Below are positions 22,926 through 63,947 of a stretch of 64,000 nt of DNA, piece after piece. Source of the stretch: Escherichia coli. Lineage in GTDB: Bacteria; Pseudomonadota; Gammaproteobacteria; Enterobacterales; Enterobacteriaceae. Position 1 is the stretch's first letter. Every line of letters begins with the position of its first letter. The stretch lies in assembly GCA_025336685.1 (NCBI GenBank), contig GCA_025336685.1_4717.1. One strand, given 5' to 3'. Position numbers and translations under genes: made by a program. Under the pieces are notes generated by a model. It did not search any database and had not been told where the DNA came from. It saw nothing but the letters and a program-made list of their open reading frames with translations.

Positions 22926-22998
22926 CTTGACATCCTCTTATATTGGATTGCTTGCTAATAATTCAAGGTGAAGCCAATGACTCCATTGCTTCACCTAG

Positions 22999-23015
22999 GT
23001 AATATAGCCGTGAAA
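22999..23015. promoter_or_regulatory. conserved 17-mer GTAATATAGCCGTGAAA, copy 1
   Basis: Exact copy of the 17-mer at 53145-53161; both lie within about 100 nt upstream of a leftward gene; ACTCACGT octamer nearby in both. Confidence 0.35.
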
Positions 23016-23029
23016 ATTAATGCATTGAC

Positions 23030-46947: not shown

Positions 46948-47540
46948 CGTATACCCTCCTTTTCCTTATCGTAATTACTACACATATTGACAAACGCAGT
47001 ATTATCAGACAGCATGCTAACCATCTGACGGATTGCGTCCAACGGTTCAAGTTTAGGATTGATTGATTCACCGGTCAACGCGCTTATTGCTCGTGTGATC
47101 TCAGCCAAATCAACGTTCGGGTCTTTATCATCAATGATGAGCAGACTCTTCGCTGGTTTCTGACGACGTTTGATGATTAACAAATACGTGACAAGGTTCT
47201 CACGCCAAGCGTCAGAATCCAGATTGCGTATTACGGTTAACGCGCGACGCTCTTCCGCCCATGATGGTTTCTCACGGATAACGGGCATGTAAGATAATTG
47301 CTCAGCAAGCCCTTTCAAACTGACACGGTTGGTGCCACCAGGATGCTCACTAATCCGCAACATCTCGGTTAACAGACGGACATATGCGGTTGTTGTAGAA
47401 ACACCCCGCAGCGGCAGGAACAAATTATGTCCCGGAACCCCATCATGACTCAGCGGTGCGATATACGCCATGAATTGACGGATATCGTCATCGGTCTGTT
47501 CTCCAGCAACGAACTTAAACGCTTCACGTAGAACGCTCAC
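46944..47540 (-). CDS. hypothetical protein (198 aa)
   Basis: ORF, no motif. Confidence 0.4.
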   Translation of the reverse strand: MSVLREAFKFVAGEQTDDDIRQFMAYIAPLSHDGVPGHNLFLPLRGVSTTTAYVRLLTEMLRISEHPGGTNRVSLKGLAEQLSYMPVIREKPSWAEERRALTVIRNLDSDAWRENLVTYLLIIKRRQKPAKSLLIIDDKDPNVDLAEITRAISALTGESINPKLEPLDAIRQMVSMLSDNTAFVNMCSNYDKEKEGIR

Positions 47541-47826
47541 TACGAAGTCTCCTTAATGTTTCTTTTATATGCAATCTCTTCGGCAAGTACAGACGTTTGT
47601 ATAGATCAATTAACAGATAACGCATAACAGAAGCGACCACCAGGTATTCACCTTCAGCTTCCGAATAACGTATCATGTTAATTGGGTAATTCAAATAAGA
47701 ATAAGAAAAGAGATCATCGTTGGTAAGGTGATGATCTTCAAGATACTGACGAAACAATTTTGCTAAGGCATCGTACTCCATTCCGTAGTAACACAACGAC
47801 ACCTGTCTTGCAGATAGTCGTTTCAT
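47524..47826 (-). CDS. hypothetical protein (100 aa)
   Basis: ORF, no motif. Confidence 0.4.
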   Translation of the reverse strand: MKRLSARQVSLCYYGMEYDALAKLFRQYLEDHHLTNDDLFSYSYLNYPINMIRYSEAEGEYLVVASVMRYLLIDLYKRLYLPKRLHIKETLRRLRSERST

Positions 47827-51288: not shown

Positions 51289-51314
51289 AGCAGGTACCGG
51301 TAACGCGGCATAAA

Positions 51315-51332
51315 CCCTCCCCGAAGGGAGGG
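51315..51332 (-). terminator. intrinsic terminator hairpin
   Basis: CCCTCCC-CGAA-GGGAGGG followed on the minus strand by UUUAUGCCG. Confidence 0.6.
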
Positions 51333-51342
51333 CGGTTAATGA

Positions 51343-51900
51343 TTACTCCATCCATACTTCTTCGTCGTAATGATTTTCTATCGCATTACGCCAAAAACGT
51401 ACGGTGTCCAAACTAATCGGTGCGTAAAAGTGTTGGTCAACGCCTACATTAAGTCCGTTGGCCTTCGCTAACATACAGCGATGAATGTGCCCGAATAGAT
51501 TGAAGTAGCCTGGGTTTCTTTCGCTGGGCTTATGGCATAGCCAGTAGGATTCGTCATTGCTAATCGGCAATACCAGCGGATGTTCATAAACAGCAGCAAA
51601 CCCCATACCGAGCAGTTTATCACGCCACGCGTCGAAGCTTAATCCTGTCGCTTTGTATGCGTCTTCGTCCCAATTCCCCATTACCAATTGAACCTGGATA
51701 TCAGAACGAATGGCTTCCACGAACTCGAACTTACCCCAATCACCTAAATGCCACAACACACTGTTCTTTGGAAGATTGTTGATGGCTTTCAGCATATGCT
51801 GGTTCATATCGGCGACGCTTGCGAACGGACGGCGTGAATACGTCCATGTACGCTCGCTATCAAAATGGGTATCCGATATAAAGAAGATGGGTGAGGTCAT
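51343..51900 (-). CDS. calcineurin-like metallophosphoesterase
   Basis: Signature motifs ISDTHFD, GDWG, GNWD and GHIH in canonical order. Confidence 0.7.
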   Translation of the reverse strand: MTSPIFFISDTHFDSERTWTYSRRPFASVADMNQHMLKAINNLPKNSVLWHLGDWGKFEFVEAIRSDIQVQLVMGNWDEDAYKATGLSFDAWRDKLLGMGFAAVYEHPLVLPISNDESYWLCHKPSERNPGYFNLFGHIHRCMLAKANGLNVGVDQHFYAPISLDTVRFWRNAIENHYDEEVWME

Positions 51901-52379
51901 CGATTTAATTGCTCCAGAAATGCACGACCCGATTTACTTGCTTTTAAATGTTGTTCTGCGGAAGTAAGCAGAAGATCGGTTGGTGTGAATGCAGCGCTAC
52001 CTTTCCACGCCGTTTTCAGTTTACCCTTTTCGATACTGAACTGAATCAGTTGTTGGGTACCGAAGTTAAGCGTGTTCGTTGCGGCGCTAAATACACCACC
52101 CATCATGCTGTAACCAAAGACTTTCACATTTTCCGTGTAGAAGTCATTGTCGATCAATTTGTTCTGGAGCTCGAGTTGGTCGGACGGCAGTAATCCCCCA
52201 TCAAAGACACTTAAAATACCAGCCAGGCGATACATACTCACCTTCCCTGCAACGCCCACCACGTAATTGCCATACACGGTTTCTTCCAGTTTAGCAACAA
52301 CGGTGCGATCGTCGGAGGTTTTCATCGAAACCTCAATACCATCACCAACTTCTGTCAACGTTAAATCAACGATACTCAT
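51897..52379 (-). CDS. hypothetical protein (160 aa)
   Basis: ORF between the phosphoesterase and HD genes. Confidence 0.4.
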   Translation of the reverse strand: MSIVDLTLTEVGDGIEVSMKTSDDRTVVAKLEETVYGNYVVGVAGKVSMYRLAGILSVFDGGLLPSDQLELQNKLIDNDFYTENVKVFGYSMMGGVFSAATNTLNFGTQQLIQFSIEKGKLKTAWKGSAAFTPTDLLLTSAEQHLKASKSGRAFLEQLNR

Positions 52380-52401
52380 TCATTATTCTCCGCTTTCATG
52401 T

Positions 52402-53088
52402 TTAACACATGATTTCACCATGTTTCTTTTCAACATACGTATAAACGTCATCCAAATAAGCAATGAGTTTATCCCGATTTGCACAAAGCGATTTAATCGC
52501 CGCAATCTCTTTCATATAAAGCTGCTGACCTAACGCCGGATAAGTAATCCAAGCATAGCCGTCAGGCGCAAATTTAGAAATAAGATAATCGGCGGTTTCC
52601 TGTAATGCGAACTCTTTACTCATCTGACCGTAACGATGTTCGATTGCACGGATACCAAAACGTTCACTATCCAGACGACCCATATCCGCCAAACGAAGCA
52701 CCTGAGAAGCAACCGAGCTACGTGGACCGGAGTATGAGGCACGGTGTTCAGCAATAAGTACACGTATCTCCTCGATGTCTTCTGGTGTGAAAATATGTTG
52801 CTCGTTACGAAGCAGGATAACCGCTGCACGAATACCCCCGATGAGGTGGTGGTATGTTCTGTTTTCATGGCATGCAATATCGTGCATAAAAGCGGCAGTT
52901 AATAGACGACGACGTTCCGTGGGTCTGATGATGCCAACCACATCGGCAAGCTCATTTGCCAGTTCAACAACAGCAAGCACATGTTCTTCTTGATGGGCAA
53001 GATCGTTCTTCTGAATATTTTCAATTACTTCAGCGCGAGTTTCCTGAGATAAGAAATTTAAACAATCCAACGAATATAAAGATTTCAT
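52402..53088 (-). CDS. HD-domain phosphohydrolase
   Basis: HQEEHVLAV...AAFMHDIACH gives the H...HD metal-binding signature. Confidence 0.6.
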   Translation of the reverse strand: MKSLYSLDCLNFLSQETRAEVIENIQKNDLAHQEEHVLAVVELANELADVVGIIRPTERRRLLTAAFMHDIACHENRTYHHLIGGIRAAVILLRNEQHIFTPEDIEEIRVLIAEHRASYSGPRSSVASQVLRLADMGRLDSERFGIRAIEHRYGQMSKEFALQETADYLISKFAPDGYAWITYPALGQQLYMKEIAAIKSLCANRDKLIAYLDDVYTYVEKKHGEIMC

Positions 53089-53144
53089 CGCACGTACCTC
53101 TTTGAATCGGTAGATAGATTAATAGATATTGATTACTCACGTAA

Positions 53145-53161
53145 GTAATATAGCCGTGAAA
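53145..53161. promoter_or_regulatory. conserved 17-mer GTAATATAGCCGTGAAA, copy 2, in the divergent intergenic region
   Basis: Identical to 22999-23015; overlapped by a 6-bp hairpin ATTACT-CACGTA-AGTAAT; ACTCACGT octamer at 53135-53142. Confidence 0.35.
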
Positions 53162-53240
53162 GGATTTGTGTTGGTCCGTTTCGATGCCCATCGTATTTTA
53201 TGGATTGTCGAATGACGTCATTTTAAGGGACATCCCCGAC

Positions 53241-53276
53241 CTCCTCCCCACACCTTTCCAGGGGAGGAGTTTTATC
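53241..53276 (+). terminator. plus-strand terminator-like hairpin in the leader of the SNF2 gene (attenuator or small-RNA terminator)
   Basis: CTCCTCCCC/GGGGAGGAG 9-bp stem, 11-nt loop, followed by TTTTATC; sits 30 nt upstream of the SNF2 start. Confidence 0.45.
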
Positions 53277-55419: not shown

Positions 55420-55485
55420 TATGCCGTGTTTGTTACAAAATCGTATGGCGTATATGCGTTGTACTTATTAAATAGGACAGAATAC

Positions 55486-56937
55486 ATGAAACTCAAACAA
55501 AGCTGGAAAGACGAACTTCTTGCGTTAGTAAATAGCAAAAACAGTTTACAGCTGACATTAGCCGACGTAAAATTTGAACTAACTGAACCGGTAAGCGAAG
55601 TGCCCGGAACGGTTACTGTTACGATCAAACCGAACGATGATAGCCGTTACTTTAACGAGCAGTCTCTGACCTACATCCGTCGAGACATCGCTAAAAACTT
55701 CACCGGGATCCCGTTACGGGTTATCGTTAAAAATGATACTGCCGTAAAGGATATCATCAACACGATCGCTGAACGTTACGGATTGGTATTTGACACAACC
55801 GTCGACTTCCTCGAATCCGAGCTGAATAAACAAATTACGTTCGCAGACACCGGTATTAAAGACATCACGGTTCCGGTTGCAAACACGTCTTATGTTTGGG
55901 CTGGTAATCTTCAGTTCAACATTGCTAACGATACGTTAAGCTTGATTACGATCATCAAGCAAACCGATCTTACGAATCTGGTTTATCTGGATGGTGTTGA
56001 AGCTGATACAACGGGATCGTTACTATTAGCAACGACCTCGGTTATCGACGAAAACGGAAATACCGAAACAACTGAAGGTGTCCTTGACGCAGCGCACTTC
56101 CAGAATGTCCTGAACGTCATGGTTCGTTATGGTGATATTACCAACGAACAAATGCAACAAGCAATGCAGACAATTAACCAAAGCGAAGACGTTCGTAGAG
56201 TAGAGGTGAGATCATACGGTGACGCCGAATTACTGGTAACCACCAAGAAAGATTGGGCTATCGGCAGCCTTAAGGGTGCTATGGTTGTTGGACGCGCTTC
56301 ACCTAAACCGATCCAATACGTTCTTAAAACAAAAGGCGGCAGCATTATATTATCATTAGATGGTTGGACAAATGTTTCCATCGATTGGGGTGATGGGAAT
56401 AAGACGACGGAGGACTCAGTCGATAATGAATATCGGCACACCTATGCGGACACTACAGAACGTACGATCGTCGCTACGGGTACCCCTACCAACGTTGAAG
56501 ATACAGAGGTACAGCAAAGCTTCACCGGTGGTAACATCACTGAAATCGTTGACTGGAACAACGGATTACCTAAGGCCCCATCATTACCTGCGGCGAACAG
56601 TTTAACTAAGGTTCCTAATTATATCCCGGCATACTGGACATCGTTAGAAGGTATGTTTACACGATGCAGCGTTATTAACGACGTGAACATCACCAAATGG
56701 AACACCCGCAACATTACTTCAATGAAGGACCTCTTCTACGGTTGCGCTGCGTTCAACCAACCGATCGGTTCGTGGGATGTTTCGTCTGTTAAGAATATCG
56801 ACAATATGTTGTCTGGATGCTTCGCGTTCAATCAGGATCTGAGTGGTTGGACATTCCCGGCAGGCACTTCACACATCAACTACGACGGCATGACCGCCGT
56901 GTGGAGTACTGAACACAAACCACACTTCGCTGAGTAA
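55486..56937 (+). CDS. receptor-binding-like protein: anchor domain fused to DUF285/BspA-like repeats, encoded outside the tail module
   Basis: N-terminal anchor paralog (YIRRDIAKNFTGIPLRVI); C-terminal WNTRNITSMKDLFYGC / WDVSSVKNIDNMLSGC repeats; start MKLKQSWKDEL with AGGA SD. Confidence 0.6.
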   Translation: MKLKQSWKDELLALVNSKNSLQLTLADVKFELTEPVSEVPGTVTVTIKPNDDSRYFNEQSLTYIRRDIAKNFTGIPLRVIVKNDTAVKDIINTIAERYGLVFDTTVDFLESELNKQITFADTGIKDITVPVANTSYVWAGNLQFNIANDTLSLITIIKQTDLTNLVYLDGVEADTTGSLLLATTSVIDENGNTETTEGVLDAAHFQNVLNVMVRYGDITNEQMQQAMQTINQSEDVRRVEVRSYGDAELLVTTKKDWAIGSLKGAMVVGRASPKPIQYVLKTKGGSIILSLDGWTNVSIDWGDGNKTTEDSVDNEYRHTYADTTERTIVATGTPTNVEDTEVQQSFTGGNITEIVDWNNGLPKAPSLPAANSLTKVPNYIPAYWTSLEGMFTRCSVINDVNITKWNTRNITSMKDLFYGCAAFNQPIGSWDVSSVKNIDNMLSGCFAFNQDLSGWTFPAGTSHINYDGMTAVWSTEHKPHFAE

Positions 56938-63525: not shown

Positions 63526-63536
63526 CGTAATATACA

Positions 63537-63947
63537 TCAGAAAGGAGGACGATCTTTAAATTCTAGCAACGTGTCTTCGAAGCAAGCGATGAGTTCAGAC
63601 TGCAATTCTGTTCGGCCTTGTTCACCGAAAAGTTCCAGCAACATTAACCCCCGAGCGGTCTTCGTAGCAACCTCTTCGCAGATACAGAGATTGTGGACTT
63701 CATCATCGTCAACATCTTTACGTAACTGTGCCGCAATGGGCTTAAGATTGCCGTTTTCATCGTATTCGTCACGAAATGCATCATAAGCCGCATCGATGTT
63801 CGCTATCCGTGTCAATCCTTCAGAATCCCGCCAGTCTCGATATAATCCAAGCAGACGGTTATGATTCTTCGTTTTGATGTTCGGTGCCGGAAGGTTGCGT
63901 AACAGATGTGGTGTAATCCTTGCTATAACGCTATCCGAATGGTCCAT
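63537..63947 (-). CDS. hypothetical protein (136 aa)
   Basis: ORF, acidic C-terminal half. Confidence 0.4.
   Translation of the reverse strand: MDHSDSVIARITPHLLRNLPAPNIKTKNHNRLLGLYRDWRDSEGLTRIANIDAAYDAFRDEYDENGNLKPIAAQLRKDVDDDEVHNLCICEEVATKTARGLMLLELFGEQGRTELQSELIACFEDTLLEFKDRPPF

What the first reader, a model, noticed from the sequence alone, without database searches (positions are those of the whole stretch)
51343..53088. HD phosphohydrolase and calcineurin-like phosphoesterase bracketing one unknown gene
Two different metal-dependent phosphohydrolase folds within 1.7 kb at the promoter-proximal end of an early operon. Such pairs can act on nucleotides or nucleotide second messengers, so the pair is a candidate for nucleotide-pool remodelling or interference with host signalling-based defence.
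Basis: inference. Interest (0 to 1): 0.35.

Follow-up and report, generated by a model that had tools for sequence, protein, structure and literature searches.

The report
Goslar-type phage early three-gene phosphoesterase operon
The three genes are real and form a compact, probably early-transcribed operon of an E. coli nucleus-forming jumbo phage close to Goslar, but the two phosphoesterases are ordinary, uncharacterised family members that do not travel together outside this small group of phages.

Summary
Window 51343-53088 (minus strand) encodes three genes:
- an HD-domain protein (228 aa);
- a 160-aa protein with no family;
- a small calcineurin-like metallophosphoesterase (MPE, 185 aa).

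The window is 94% identical to Escherichia phage Goslar (Chimalliviridae). The genes are Goslar gp159, gp158 and gp157, already annotated in those terms.

New here:
- The trio appears to be a self-contained unit. It starts at a roughly 40-nt promoter-like element that occurs 12 times in Goslar, including upstream of chimallin and of a non-virion RNA polymerase subunit. It ends at a terminator-like hairpin.
- Gene order is conserved in two metagenomic relatives at 33-51% protein identity.

The two enzymes are not a conserved pair. The HD family is spread across Chimalliviridae without the MPE. The MPE family is spread across unrelated large phages without the HD.

The nearest solved relatives are E. 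coli YedJ for the HD and Aquifex aq_1665 for the MPE. Neither has an assigned function, so no substrate can be named.

A 2026 preprint detects gp158 (about 900 copies) and gp157 (about 75) in Goslar virion preparations, but gp159 at only about 1. Chimallin co-purifies at about 126, so packaging of gp157 is unproven.

The anti-defence reading is untested and has no specific support. Interest is modest.

The parts
53131..53174 (-). Promoter-like element (core TATATTAC at 53145-53152) 48 nt upstream of the HD start codon. It is a candidate early promoter for the virion RNA polymerase (vRNAP).
   Evidence: The exact 17-mer TTTCACGGCTATATTAC occurs twice in the window, both times on the minus strand and in intergenic DNA. 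A PWM built from Goslar sites scores this site 46.8. Goslar has 12 such sites, all on the minus strand and 11 in annotated intergenic DNA (the 12th lies inside the small ORF gp047), with scores of 26-61 against a maximum of about 2 in shuffles. They include the sites upstream of chimallin gp246 and nvRNAP gp175. The motif is retained upstream of the HD gene in diverged relatives L011 and L015, although the flanking sequence has changed.
52402..53088 (-). HD-domain phosphohydrolase, 228 aa (orthologue of Goslar gp159). It belongs to a family spread across Chimalliviridae (phrog_3921).
   Evidence: Pfam HD at 9.8e-8 and phrog_3921 at 5e-31. tblastn finds the family in 97 phage records; every record listed is 210-294 kb. 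Invariant residues are N28, D29, H32, H36, H69, D70, C73, R77, H80, H81, H115, R116 and D135. The family profile's best PDB match is E. coli YedJ (3gw7, 2.4e-6), then 2pq7. The AF2 model has pLDDT 89; Foldseek returns only weak matches to HD-superfamily proteins.
51897..52379 (-). 160-aa acidic protein (pI 5.2) with no recognisable family (orthologue of Goslar gp158). It is restricted to Goslar-like phages.
   Evidence: No hit in any family library. Only Goslar matches among 50,697 phage records. An exhaustive HMMER search of 1.84 billion representative proteins finds just 3 clusters, at 99%, 39% and 37% identity, which share an SVFDGGxxPSDxLxL motif. Goslar gp158 (YP_009820843.1) is estimated at about 617-1454 copies per virion by LFQ-MS in 10.64898/2026.04.21.720040. 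The AF2 model is unusable, with pLDDT 39.7.
51343..51900 (-). Small binuclear metallophosphoesterase, 185 aa (orthologue of Goslar gp157), of the aq_1665/COG4186 type. Its start codon overlaps the stop codon of the preceding gene (ATGA).
   Evidence: Metallophos_2 at 3.4e-8 and phrog_547 at 6.8e-31. There are 95 homologues. All metal-ligand motifs are invariant, and motif III is GN[W/Y][D/E] rather than GNH[D/E]. The family profile matches PDB 1xm7 (Aquifex aq_1665, 'hypothetical protein') at 4.5e-17. The 4-nt overlap is seen. Goslar gp157 (YP_009820842.1) is estimated at about 50-118 copies per virion with 62.7% coverage.
51309..51333 (-). Terminator-like hairpin (8-bp G+C stem, UUCG loop, then UUUAU) starting 12 nt after the MPE stop codon.
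   Evidence: Predicted fold energy is -21.2 kcal/mol, z = -2.1. Goslar has the same hairpin (z = -2.7). Relative L011 has a different, longer 13-bp stem at the same position, with the same UUCG loop plus U5 (z = -5.7), followed 14 nt later by another promoter-like element at L011 9123-9166. The simple terminator scan missed the window hairpin because its T-run is short.

Best explanation
This is a self-contained three-gene transcription unit of a Goslar-like nucleus-forming jumbo phage (Chimalliviridae). The predicted layout is promoter-like element, HD phosphohydrolase, clade-specific 160-aa protein, small metallophosphoesterase (MPE), then a terminator-like hairpin.

Inferred course of events:
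- Soon after injection the virion RNA polymerase starts at the conserved element (window 53131-53174). It makes a tricistronic mRNA of about 1.8 kb that ends at the hairpin after the MPE gene.
- The HD protein stays in the infected cell. It most likely hydrolyses (deoxy)nucleotides, helping to adjust or clean the nucleotide pool for phage DNA synthesis.
- The 160-aa protein and the MPE are translationally coupled. The 160-aa protein accumulates to high levels and ends up in virion preparations. The MPE is an intact binuclear phosphoesterase whose substrate is unknown, most probably a nucleotide or a nucleic-acid end.
- The two enzymes work independently. They are not a dedicated two-enzyme system; their adjacency arose in the Goslar lineage.

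Shown: the genes, their intact catalytic motifs, the conserved gene order, and the conserved flanking elements.
Inferred: early timing, the transcript ends and the substrates.
For: Identity of the locus.

Unit boundaries:
- The promoter-like element forms a 12-member class in Goslar, all on one strand; 11 of the 12 lie in annotated intergenic DNA. The class includes the sites before chimallin and nvRNAP gp175.
- Chimallin is described as early-expressed in 10.64898/2026.04.21.720040.
- A review states that conserved AT-rich motifs near -10 mark early vRNAP promoters in such phages (PMC7598289).
- The motif is retained in diverged relatives.
- A hairpin follows the MPE gene in the window, in Goslar and in L011. 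In L011 the stem sequence differs and a new promoter-like site follows.
- Gene spacing is tight: a 22-nt gap, then a 4-nt overlap.

Conservation: the order helicase | HD - ORFan - MPE is kept in L011-L015. Identities to the window are HD 33-40%, ORFan 36-38%, MPE 49-51% and helicase 61%.

Independence of the two enzymes:
- The HD family occurs in RisingSun, Miami, PS1, pTD1 and Proteus phage 10 with no MPE nearby.
- The MPE family occurs in Yoloswag (not Chimalliviridae) and in Enterococcus, Bacillus and Streptomyces phages with no HD gene annotated nearby.
- Goslar is the only phage that appears in both displayed hit lists.

Nucleotide role of the HD protein:
- In pTD1 it lies between, and overlaps, DHFR and thymidylate synthase.
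- L011-L013 carry a dCTP deaminase/dUTPase gene and thymidylate synthase downstream on the same strand.
- The closest solved sequence is YedJ. A published study aligns YedJ with B. subtilis YpgQ, a characterised (d)NTP pyrophosphohydrolase (PMC11592144 and PMC8177086).

MPE family contexts are replication and nucleotide-metabolism regions.

Copy estimates in virion preparations: gp158 about 926, gp157 about 75, gp159 about 1.
Against: - There is no biochemical or transcript data for these genes. Early timing rests only on motif sharing.
- Foldseek matches for the HD model are weak (best E = 4e-3, TM 0.45-0.58). They include cyclic-nucleotide phosphodiesterases and YqeK as well as the YedJ-like proteins.
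- The HD family keeps more conserved histidines than the mononuclear YpgQ site. This fits the extended H..HD..H..H..D pattern that a review associates with dinuclear sites, which are found in several phosphodiesterases (PMC8177086).
- Contexts of the MPE family are heterogeneous. One points to tRNA repair.
- The same preparation contains about 126 'copies' of chimallin, which is not a virion protein. The authors say nucleus fragments co-purified. The gp157 signal, and possibly the gp158 signal, may therefore not reflect packaging.
- An abundant protein of virion preparations encoded in an early unit is unexpected and is not explained.
Confidence: 0.45

Rival explanations
1. Packaged enzyme module. 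The 160-aa protein and the metallophosphoesterase are genuinely incorporated into the capsid, possibly as a complex. They are injected with the DNA into the early infection vesicle or the host cell. The phosphoesterase can then act before any phage gene is expressed, for example on host signalling nucleotides, on DNA ends or on membrane phosphoesters.
For: gp158 is the second most abundant unmodelled protein of unknown function in Goslar virion preparations, at about 926 copies. gp157 is detected with 14 peptides and 62.7% coverage, at about 75 copies. The first cistron of the same predicted mRNA, gp159, is at about 1 copy, and the nvRNAP subunit gp175 is at about 0.6. Simple carry-over of early proteins therefore does not explain the pattern. 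The two genes are translationally coupled. Goslar is known to inject other high-copy proteins, such as gp58, gp60 and gp61.
Against: Chimallin, which is not a virion protein, is estimated at about 126 copies in the same sample. The authors state that large assemblies co-purified. Neither gp157 nor gp158 was among the four proteins they validated by GFP tagging. The unit carries an early-type promoter element rather than lying among structural genes. The cryoEM model does not place gp158.
Confidence: 0.15
2. Anti-defence hydrolases. One or both enzymes degrade nucleotide second messengers of host immunity (CBASS, Pycsar, Thoeris, type III CRISPR) or alarmones.
For: The unit is probably expressed early. 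The HD family conserves an extended set of histidines compatible with a dinuclear, phosphodiesterase-type site. Foldseek lists cyclic-nucleotide phosphodiesterases among its weak matches. As general knowledge, the metallophosphoesterase superfamily includes cyclic-nucleotide phosphodiesterases.
Against: Only a weak, non-significant PADLOC match was found (Cas10 HD region, E = 0.011). From my own knowledge, the known phage signal-degrading enzymes use other folds: Acb1 is a 2H phosphoesterase, Apyc1 is a metallo-beta-lactamase and AcrIII-1 is DUF1874. The HD protein has neither the HDxxED motif of (p)ppGpp hydrolases nor a GYP motif (sequence). The HD family is a broadly conserved chimallivirus gene and sits inside a dTMP-synthesis cluster in pTD1. 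That pattern fits housekeeping better than an arms-race gene. The MPE family sits in replication and nucleotide-metabolism regions of many unrelated phages.
Confidence: 0.12
3. RNA or tRNA end-healing. The metallophosphoesterase, and perhaps the HD protein, removes 2',3'-cyclic or 3'-phosphate ends from cleaved RNAs. This would counter host anticodon nucleases or process phage RNA.
For: In a 218-kb phage contig (L024) a member of the same MPE family overlaps the end of a Thg1-like gene (Pfam Thg1, 3e-32). It lies about 600 nt upstream of a CCA-adding enzyme. Metallophosphoesterases such as C. thermocellum Pnkp and lambda phosphatase have 2',3'-cyclic phosphodiesterase activity (PMC2190708, abstract listed). 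Goslar-like phages carry a 3'-5' exoribonuclease on the same strand about 5 kb downstream.
Against: No RNA ligase, polynucleotide kinase, Thg1-like gene or CCA-adding enzyme is annotated near the locus. The window contains no tRNA gene. The tRNA-repair context was seen in only one distant lineage; other contexts differ.
Confidence: 0.1

Closest known systems
Escherichia phage vB_EcoM_Goslar gp159 / gp158 / gp157 (NC_048170.1, 140999-142744)
   Same: This is the orthologous locus. Nucleotide identity is 94%, and protein identities by tblastn are 97%, 95% and 98%. Order, strand, spacing, upstream element and downstream hairpin are the same. RefSeq already names the outer genes 'HD domain-containing protein' and 'metallophosphoesterase family protein'.
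   Different: The window is a distinct strain. It is closest to IMG/VR UViG_3300011560_000001, with 99% identity for the middle protein. No function has been published for any of the three genes. Only gp158 is mentioned in the literature I could search, as a high-copy virion-associated protein of unknown function.
E. coli YedJ (PDB 3gw7) and the related HD hydrolases 2pq7, 2pjq, 3djb and 2qgs; B. subtilis YpgQ is the characterised (d)NTP pyrophosphohydrolase that a published study aligns with YedJ
   Same: These are the best profile-to-PDB matches (2.4e-6 and 3.3e-5), and they also lead the Foldseek list. They share the all-alpha HD fold and the H..HD..H..D ligand positions. YpgQ hydrolyses NTPs and dNTPs (PMC8177086).
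   Different: Identity is only about 20%. Foldseek E-values are 4e-3 or worse. The phage family has extra invariant residues not described for YpgQ (N28-D29, C73, R77, H80-H81, and a C-terminal GYxW..YP block). YedJ itself is uncharacterised (PMC11592144). I did not compare the phage family with YpgQ directly.
Aquifex aeolicus aq_1665 (PDB 1xm7), a small metallophosphoesterase of unknown function; Goslar's record assigns gp157 to COG4186
   Same: The family profile matches at 4.5e-17 over nearly the full length. It shares motifs I, II, IV and V and the compact size of about 180-195 aa.
   Different: aq_1665 is a structural-genomics 'hypothetical protein', and I found no functional paper on it. 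It keeps GNHD in motif III, whereas the phage family has GN[W/Y][D/E].
Phage nucleotide-pool enzymes such as T4 dCTPase/dUTPase (gp56) and T5 deoxynucleotidase (Dmp) (from my own knowledge, not tested here)
   Same: These are early-expressed phosphohydrolases that reshape the dNTP/dNMP pool for phage DNA synthesis. That is the role proposed here for the HD protein, in view of its position beside DHFR and ThyA in pTD1.
   Different: No sequence relationship was tested or found. No substrate is known for the proteins in this window.
Phage enzymes that degrade immune second messengers: Acb1, Apyc1, AcrIII-1 (from my own knowledge)
   Same: They are small, early phage hydrolases of nucleotide signals.
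   Different: Their folds differ (2H phosphoesterase, metallo-beta-lactamase, DUF1874). Pfam finds only HD and Metallophos domains here. No activity data exist.

Membership tests
HD-domain metal-dependent phosphohydrolase superfamily (PF01966) | H...HD...D metal-binding motif on an all-alpha fold | tested here: met
   The Pfam score of 32.7 bits exceeds the cutoff of 22. H36, H69-D70, H115 and D135 are invariant in 10 homologues. The AF2 model is all-helical with pLDDT 89, and the top Foldseek matches are HD proteins.
YedJ/YpgQ-like HD nucleotide pyrophosphohydrolases | Specific sequence and structural similarity to the subfamily | tested here: inconclusive
   The profile matches YedJ (3gw7) at 2.4e-6 and 2pq7 at 3.3e-5. 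Foldseek E-values are only 4e-3 to 4e-2 with TM 0.43-0.58, and cyclic-nucleotide phosphodiesterases score similarly. No direct comparison with YpgQ was run.
YedJ/YpgQ-like HD nucleotide pyrophosphohydrolases | Mn-dependent hydrolysis of (d)NTP to (d)NMP + PPi | not testable with these tools
   An enzyme assay is required. The activity is described for YpgQ in PMC8177086.
RelA/SpoT-type (p)ppGpp hydrolases and small alarmone hydrolases | HDxxED signature after the HD dyad (from my own knowledge) | tested here: not met
   The sequence reads MHDIACHEN. No RelA/SpoT-type family appeared in Pfam or NCBIfam.
HD-GYP cyclic-dinucleotide phosphodiesterases | GYP motif downstream of the HD dyad (from my own knowledge) | tested here: not met
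   There is no GYP motif. The conserved C-terminal block is (P)DGYxW...YP, 108 residues after the HD dyad.
Calcineurin-like metallophosphoesterase superfamily (PF12850/PF00149) | Motifs DxH, GD, GNH[D/E], H and GHxH, which bind a binuclear metal centre | tested here: met
   The Metallophos_2 score of 34.1 bits exceeds the cutoff of 27. D10, H12, G53-D54, H123, H138 and H140 are invariant, and G75-N76 are at least 90% conserved, in 50 sequences. The histidine of motif III is replaced by W/Y (GNWD).
aq_1665 (1xm7)-type small metallophosphoesterases (COG4186 per Goslar's annotation) | Full-length profile similarity to the family representative | tested here: met
   The hmmsearch E-value is 4.5e-17 over profile positions 6-166. 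Goslar's record notes COG4186 for gp157.
PdeM, ligase-associated DNA-damage-response endonuclease (TIGR04123) | Score above the NCBIfam cutoff | tested here: not met
   The score is 21.6 bits against a cutoff of 150. Only 32 residues around the GHxH motif align.
Known anti-phage-defence or counter-defence proteins | Match to a PADLOC model, or a fold shared with Acb1, Apyc1 or AcrIII-1 | tested here: not met
   PADLOC gave only a Cas10 HD-region match at E = 0.011, and nothing for the other two proteins. Pfam shows HD and Metallophos domains only. No counter-defence library was available, so the fold comparison rests on my own knowledge.
Chimallivirus early (virion RNA polymerase) transcription units | Conserved AT-rich promoter motif shared with known early genes | tested here: met
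   The class has 12 members in Goslar. It includes the sites before chimallin and nvRNAP gp175, and the site 48 nt before the HD gene. The criterion is taken from PMC7598289.
Chimallivirus early (virion RNA polymerase) transcription units | Transcript detected early in infection, independently of nvRNAP | not testable with these tools
   No per-gene Goslar expression table was available.
Virion-packaged or injected proteins of chimalliviruses | Presence in purified virions, confirmed by an orthogonal method | not tested
   The evidence is from the literature only: LFQ-MS estimates from 10.64898/2026.04.21.720040. Chimallin co-purifies at about 126 copies. No GFP validation exists for gp157 or gp158.

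The most novel reading that the evidence does not exclude
The clade-specific 160-aa protein and the metallophosphoesterase are a capsid-packaged pair that is delivered with the genome into the early infection vesicle. A nucleus-forming phage would then carry a ready-made phosphoesterase into the cell. The enzyme could act on host signalling nucleotides, DNA ends or vesicle phosphoesters before any phage transcription. The same unit would be re-expressed from an early promoter to reinforce that activity.
Probability: 0.12. Interest if true: 0.65.

Novelty: new member of a known kind. Interest (0 to 1): 0.3.

Why it matters
As it stands this is a routine result. Two auxiliary phosphohydrolases of known superfamilies, already annotated in the reference phage, have no assignable substrate.

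The added value is organisational:
- The trio is delimited as one conserved unit.
- It is placed in a 12-member promoter class that also drives chimallin and an nvRNAP subunit. That gives a testable list of candidate early promoters for Goslar.
- The middle gene, and possibly the metallophosphoesterase, are linked to published virion proteomics.

If the metallophosphoesterase really is packaged and injected, it would be a new type of enzyme cargo for nucleus-forming phages. It would also give a handle on what happens inside the early infection vesicle.

Tried and rejected
- Single-sequence PDB searches gave nothing useful: HD best E = 0.4, MPE none, ORFan noise only.
- The word-indexed homologue search found only the Goslar cluster for the HD protein. 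Even with a six-phage alignment as query it returned only 9 proteins.
- The ORFan structure prediction from 4 sequences had pLDDT 39.7, so I ran no fold search on it.
- I tested whether the ORFan is a diverged positional homologue of the genes that follow the HD gene in RisingSun, Miami and PS1. It is not. Those genes encode proteins with a hydrophobic N-terminus, and RisingSun gp239 shows no similarity by BLASTP.
- The ORFan also shows no similarity to the gene after the Yoloswag MPE, to the gene after the HD gene in Proteus phage 10, or to Goslar gp214, another high-copy protein of about 160 aa behind the same promoter class.
- I tested whether HD+MPE adjacency recurs in Enterococcus phages. 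The second 'phosphoesterase' there is another Metallophos protein, not an HD protein.
- A literature search for the string TATATTAC was uninformative.
- Searching the preprint's peptide table for N-terminal peptides of gp157 and gp158 failed because the stored file is truncated. Signs of proteolytic maturation could therefore not be checked.
- The core-genome paper on chimalliviruses does not mention a phosphohydrolase or phosphoesterase.
- No match was found in complete E. coli genomes.
- The sigma-70 promoter scan found fewer sites than in shuffles, as expected for a phage that uses its own polymerases.
Full report
**What is there**

The interval 51343-53088 is filled by three minus-strand ORFs:
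- 52402-53088, 228 aa;
- 51897-52379, 160 aa;
- 51343-51900, 185 aa.

They are separated by a 22-nt gap and then a 4-nt ATGA overlap. The first ORF is an HD-domain protein: Pfam gives 32.7 bits against a cutoff of 22, and phrog_3921 matches at 5e-31. The last is a calcineurin-like metallophosphoesterase (MPE): Metallophos_2 gives 34.1 bits against a cutoff of 27, and phrog_547 matches at 7e-31. The middle ORF matches nothing in Pfam, PHROGs, NCBIfam or PADLOC.

**Source of the window**

The region is 94% identical to Escherichia phage vB_EcoM_Goslar, genus Goslarvirus, family Chimalliviridae. These are the nucleus-forming jumbo phages. The genes are orthologues of Goslar gp159 (HD domain-containing protein), gp158 (hypothetical) and gp157 (metallophosphoesterase family protein). 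An SNF2/DEAD helicase (gp160) is transcribed divergently from the HD gene. An IMG/VR contig of 237,533 bp is 99% identical for the middle protein and is probably the closer relative.

**The HD protein**

- tblastn finds the family in 97 phage records. All records listed are jumbo genomes of 210-294 kb from Erwinia, Aeromonas, Vibrio, Klebsiella, Serratia and other hosts. Several belong to genera now placed in Chimalliviridae.
- Invariant residues are N28, D29, H32, H36, H69-D70, C73, R77, H80-H81, H115-R116, D135 and a C-terminal GYxW..YP block.
- A family profile finds E. coli YedJ (3gw7, 2.4e-6) and 2pq7 (3.3e-5) as the nearest solved sequences.
- An AlphaFold2 model (pLDDT 89) gives only weak Foldseek matches (best E = 4e-3). 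These are the same uncharacterised HD hydrolases (2pq7, 2pjq, 3gw7, 3djb, 2qgs), mixed with cyclic-nucleotide phosphodiesterases, exopolyphosphatase and YqeK.
- A published study aligns YedJ with B. subtilis YpgQ, the characterised enzyme nearest to this group, which is a Mn-dependent (d)NTP pyrophosphohydrolase (PMC11592144 and PMC8177086). I did not compare the phage family with YpgQ directly. The extra conserved histidines would also fit the extended H..HD..H..H..D pattern that the review links to dinuclear sites.
- Genomic context gives one useful hint. In Vibrio phage pTD1 the gene lies between dihydrofolate reductase and thymidylate synthase and overlaps the former.
- In the metagenomic Goslar relatives, a dCTP deaminase/dUTPase gene and thymidylate synthase follow on the same strand.
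- I rate a nucleotide-pool role as the most likely one, but the substrate is not established.

**The metallophosphoesterase**

- Ninety-five homologues were found. All metal-ligand motifs are invariant or nearly so. The histidine of the GNH[D/E] motif is replaced by W or Y.
- The family profile matches PDB 1xm7, Aquifex aq_1665, at 4.5e-17. This is a structural-genomics 'hypothetical protein', and I found no functional literature on it.
- Among phages the family is widespread, but in different lineages from the HD family: Enterococcus, Streptomyces, Bacillus, Stenotrophomonas and Xanthomonas phages. The closest named relatives (42-47% identity) are Yoloswag-like Erwinia phages, which are not Chimalliviridae.
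- Contexts are mainly replication and nucleotide-metabolism regions:
  - among primase, exonuclease, SSB and RecA genes in Yoloswag;
  - next to RNase H and a second Metallophos paralogue in Enterococcus phage EFP01;
  - between ribonucleotide reductase and DNA polymerase in Bacillus phage Bobb;
  - near thymidine kinase and NAMPT in a metagenomic contig;
  - fused to a nucleoside deoxyribosyltransferase-like domain in another contig.
- One 218-kb phage contig stands out. There the MPE gene overlaps the end of a Thg1-like gene and lies just upstream of a CCA-adding enzyme, which looks like tRNA repair.

**The middle gene**

It encodes an acidic protein (pI 5.2) restricted to Goslar-like phages. 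Only Goslar matches in the phage collection. An exhaustive HMMER search of 1.84 billion representative proteins finds only three clusters, at 99%, 39% and 37% identity. They share an SVFDGGxxPSDxLxL motif. My structure prediction was unusable, with pLDDT 39.7.

**Published virion proteomics**

The Goslar virion study (bioRxiv 10.64898/2026.04.21.720040) lists gp158 as the second most abundant unmodelled virion-associated protein of unknown function. Estimates from its Table S4 are as follows.

| Protein | Copies per virion (low / mean / high) | Coverage |
|---|---|---|
| gp158 (YP_009820843.1) | about 617 / 926 / 1454 | 19 peptides, 62% |
| gp157, the MPE | about 50 / 75 / 118 | 14 peptides, 62.7% |
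| gp159, the HD protein | about 1 | 2 peptides |
| gp246, chimallin (not a virion protein) | about 84 / 126 / 198 | 55% |
| gp175, nvRNAP subunit | about 0.6 | 7% |

The chimallin figure is an important caveat. The authors say their preparation also captured nucleus fragments and PhuZ filaments. The gp157 signal is therefore at a level that co-purification can reach. The gp158 signal is about seven-fold higher. Neither protein was validated by GFP tagging.

**Transcription unit**

- Upstream of the HD gene lies TTTCACGGCTATATTAC. This exact 17-mer occurs twice in the window, both times on the minus strand and in intergenic DNA.
- I assembled the whole Goslar genome from five fetched segments. 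A PWM of the element (consensus nTAATnCAAAAnnTTTCACGnCTA[T/C]ATTACCTAnGTGA) finds 12 sites with scores of 26-61, against a maximum of about 2 in shuffled genomes. All 12 are on the minus strand and upstream of minus-strand genes, and 11 lie in annotated intergenic DNA.
- The downstream genes include chimallin gp246, the nvRNAP subunit gp175, gp214 (another high-copy protein of virion preparations) and gp159.
- Chimallin is described as early-expressed. The nvRNAP must be made by the injected polymerase. A review states that conserved AT-rich motifs near -10 mark early vRNAP promoters in these phages (PMC7598289). I therefore accept 'early' as a well-founded inference, not a demonstrated fact.
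- The motif is retained before the HD gene in both diverged relatives, although the surrounding spacer has changed.
- Twelve nt after the MPE stop codon there is a G+C hairpin with a UUCG loop and a short U-run, both in the window and in Goslar. In relative L011 the hairpin has a different, longer stem at the same place (z = -5.7). Another promoter-class element follows it 14 nt later.
- The three genes thus look like a complete unit, not merely the start of a long operon.

**Is it a functional pair?**

The order helicase | HD - ORFan - MPE is conserved in two metagenomic lineages. Identities to the window are HD 33-40%, ORFan 36-38%, MPE 49-51% and helicase 61%. These genomes are syntenic over the whole region, however, so the conserved order is weak evidence for functional coupling.

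Outside the clade the two enzymes separate completely:
- RisingSun, Miami and PS1 have the HD gene followed by an unrelated gene, with no MPE nearby. In RisingSun and Miami the divergent-helicase arrangement is also kept.
- pTD1 has the HD gene inside a dTMP-synthesis cluster.
- Yoloswag and the Gram-positive phages have the MPE with no HD gene annotated nearby.
- Goslar is the only phage in both displayed hit lists.

The simplest history is that an ancestral chimallivirus HD gene, sitting next to the helicase, acquired a downstream ORFan+MPE insert in the Goslar lineage.

**Verdict**

- The most likely reading (about 0.45) is a self-contained early unit. It would encode a nucleotide-directed HD hydrolase, an abundant clade-specific protein that ends up in virion preparations, and a translationally coupled small phosphoesterase of unknown substrate. 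The two enzymes would act independently.
- Rival readings and rough weights: a packaged and injected ORFan-MPE module (0.15), anti-defence hydrolysis of signalling nucleotides (0.12), and RNA end-healing (0.10).
- Nothing here departs from known kinds of phage genes, and the locus is already annotated in the reference genome. Interest is modest (0.3).
- The most useful by-products are the 12-site candidate early-promoter class for Goslar and the link between this unit and published virion proteomics.

Noticed in passing
window 22985-23028 (-), 53131-53174 (-); weaker 63527-63543 (-); Goslar NC_048170.1 sites near 2560, 15060, 43260, 49730, 86700, 113790, 142793, 160784, 166062, 172971, 201937, 226688: A promoter-like element of about 40 nt (core CTA[T/C]ATTAC) occurs 12 times in Goslar. 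All copies are on one strand and upstream of co-oriented genes, and 11 of the 12 lie in annotated intergenic DNA. The genes include chimallin, an nvRNAP subunit and gp214. It is a candidate early vRNAP promoter consensus for Goslar-like phages.
   Followed up: yes
window 53241-53275 (+), between the HD gene and the divergent helicase: A perfect 9-bp G+C hairpin followed by TTTTAT lies 35 nt upstream of the helicase start codon. Goslar annotates it as a terminator, although no plus-strand gene precedes it. Hairpins with different sequences occupy the same place in relatives L011 and L015, which suggests a conserved structure such as a 5'-UTR element, an attenuator or an insulator.
   Followed up: partly
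window 53195-53215 (+): A block, ATTTTATGGATTGTCGAATGA (TCATTCGACAAnCCATAAAAT on the other strand), is conserved in Goslar, L011 and L015 within an otherwise diverged spacer. It contains TATG, which resembles the phiKZ late-promoter core quoted in PMC7598289. It may be the helicase promoter.
   Followed up: no
L011 3857-6991 and L012 2295-5429: In one metagenomic relative the orthologous SNF2 helicase is 1044 aa instead of 693 aa and carries a LAGLIDADG_3 domain. This is probably an intein or homing-endonuclease insertion.
   Followed up: no
L024 4255-7567 (218-kb metagenomic phage contig): A member of the same metallophosphoesterase family overlaps the end of a Thg1-like gene and lies about 600 nt upstream of a CCA-adding enzyme. 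This looks like a possible phage tRNA-repair module.
   Followed up: partly
Goslar gp214 (NC_048170.1 201334-201813) and gp158: Two of the ten high-copy 'virion-associated' proteins of unknown function in the Goslar preprint (gp158, gp214) are encoded immediately behind early-type promoter elements. Both are about 160 aa and show no similarity to each other. Either abundant early proteins are packaged, or they co-purify with virions.
   Followed up: partly
L026 3498-5672 (Enterococcus phage EFP01): Two tandem Metallophos paralogues and a NinI-like phosphatase cluster next to RNase H. Clusters of several phosphoesterases therefore recur in large virulent phages.
   Followed up: partly
window 55426-56937 (+): This is the orthologue of Goslar gp161, a leucine-rich-repeat protein. 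The Goslar preprint assigns gp161 to the chimallivirus-specific DUF7941 family and suggests a role in host recognition.
   Followed up: no
L011 13771-14265; window about 47524-47826: The metagenomic relatives carry a dCTP deaminase/dUTPase gene between conserved neighbours. At the apparently corresponding position the window has a 100-aa ORF instead. I did not align the two regions.
   Followed up: no
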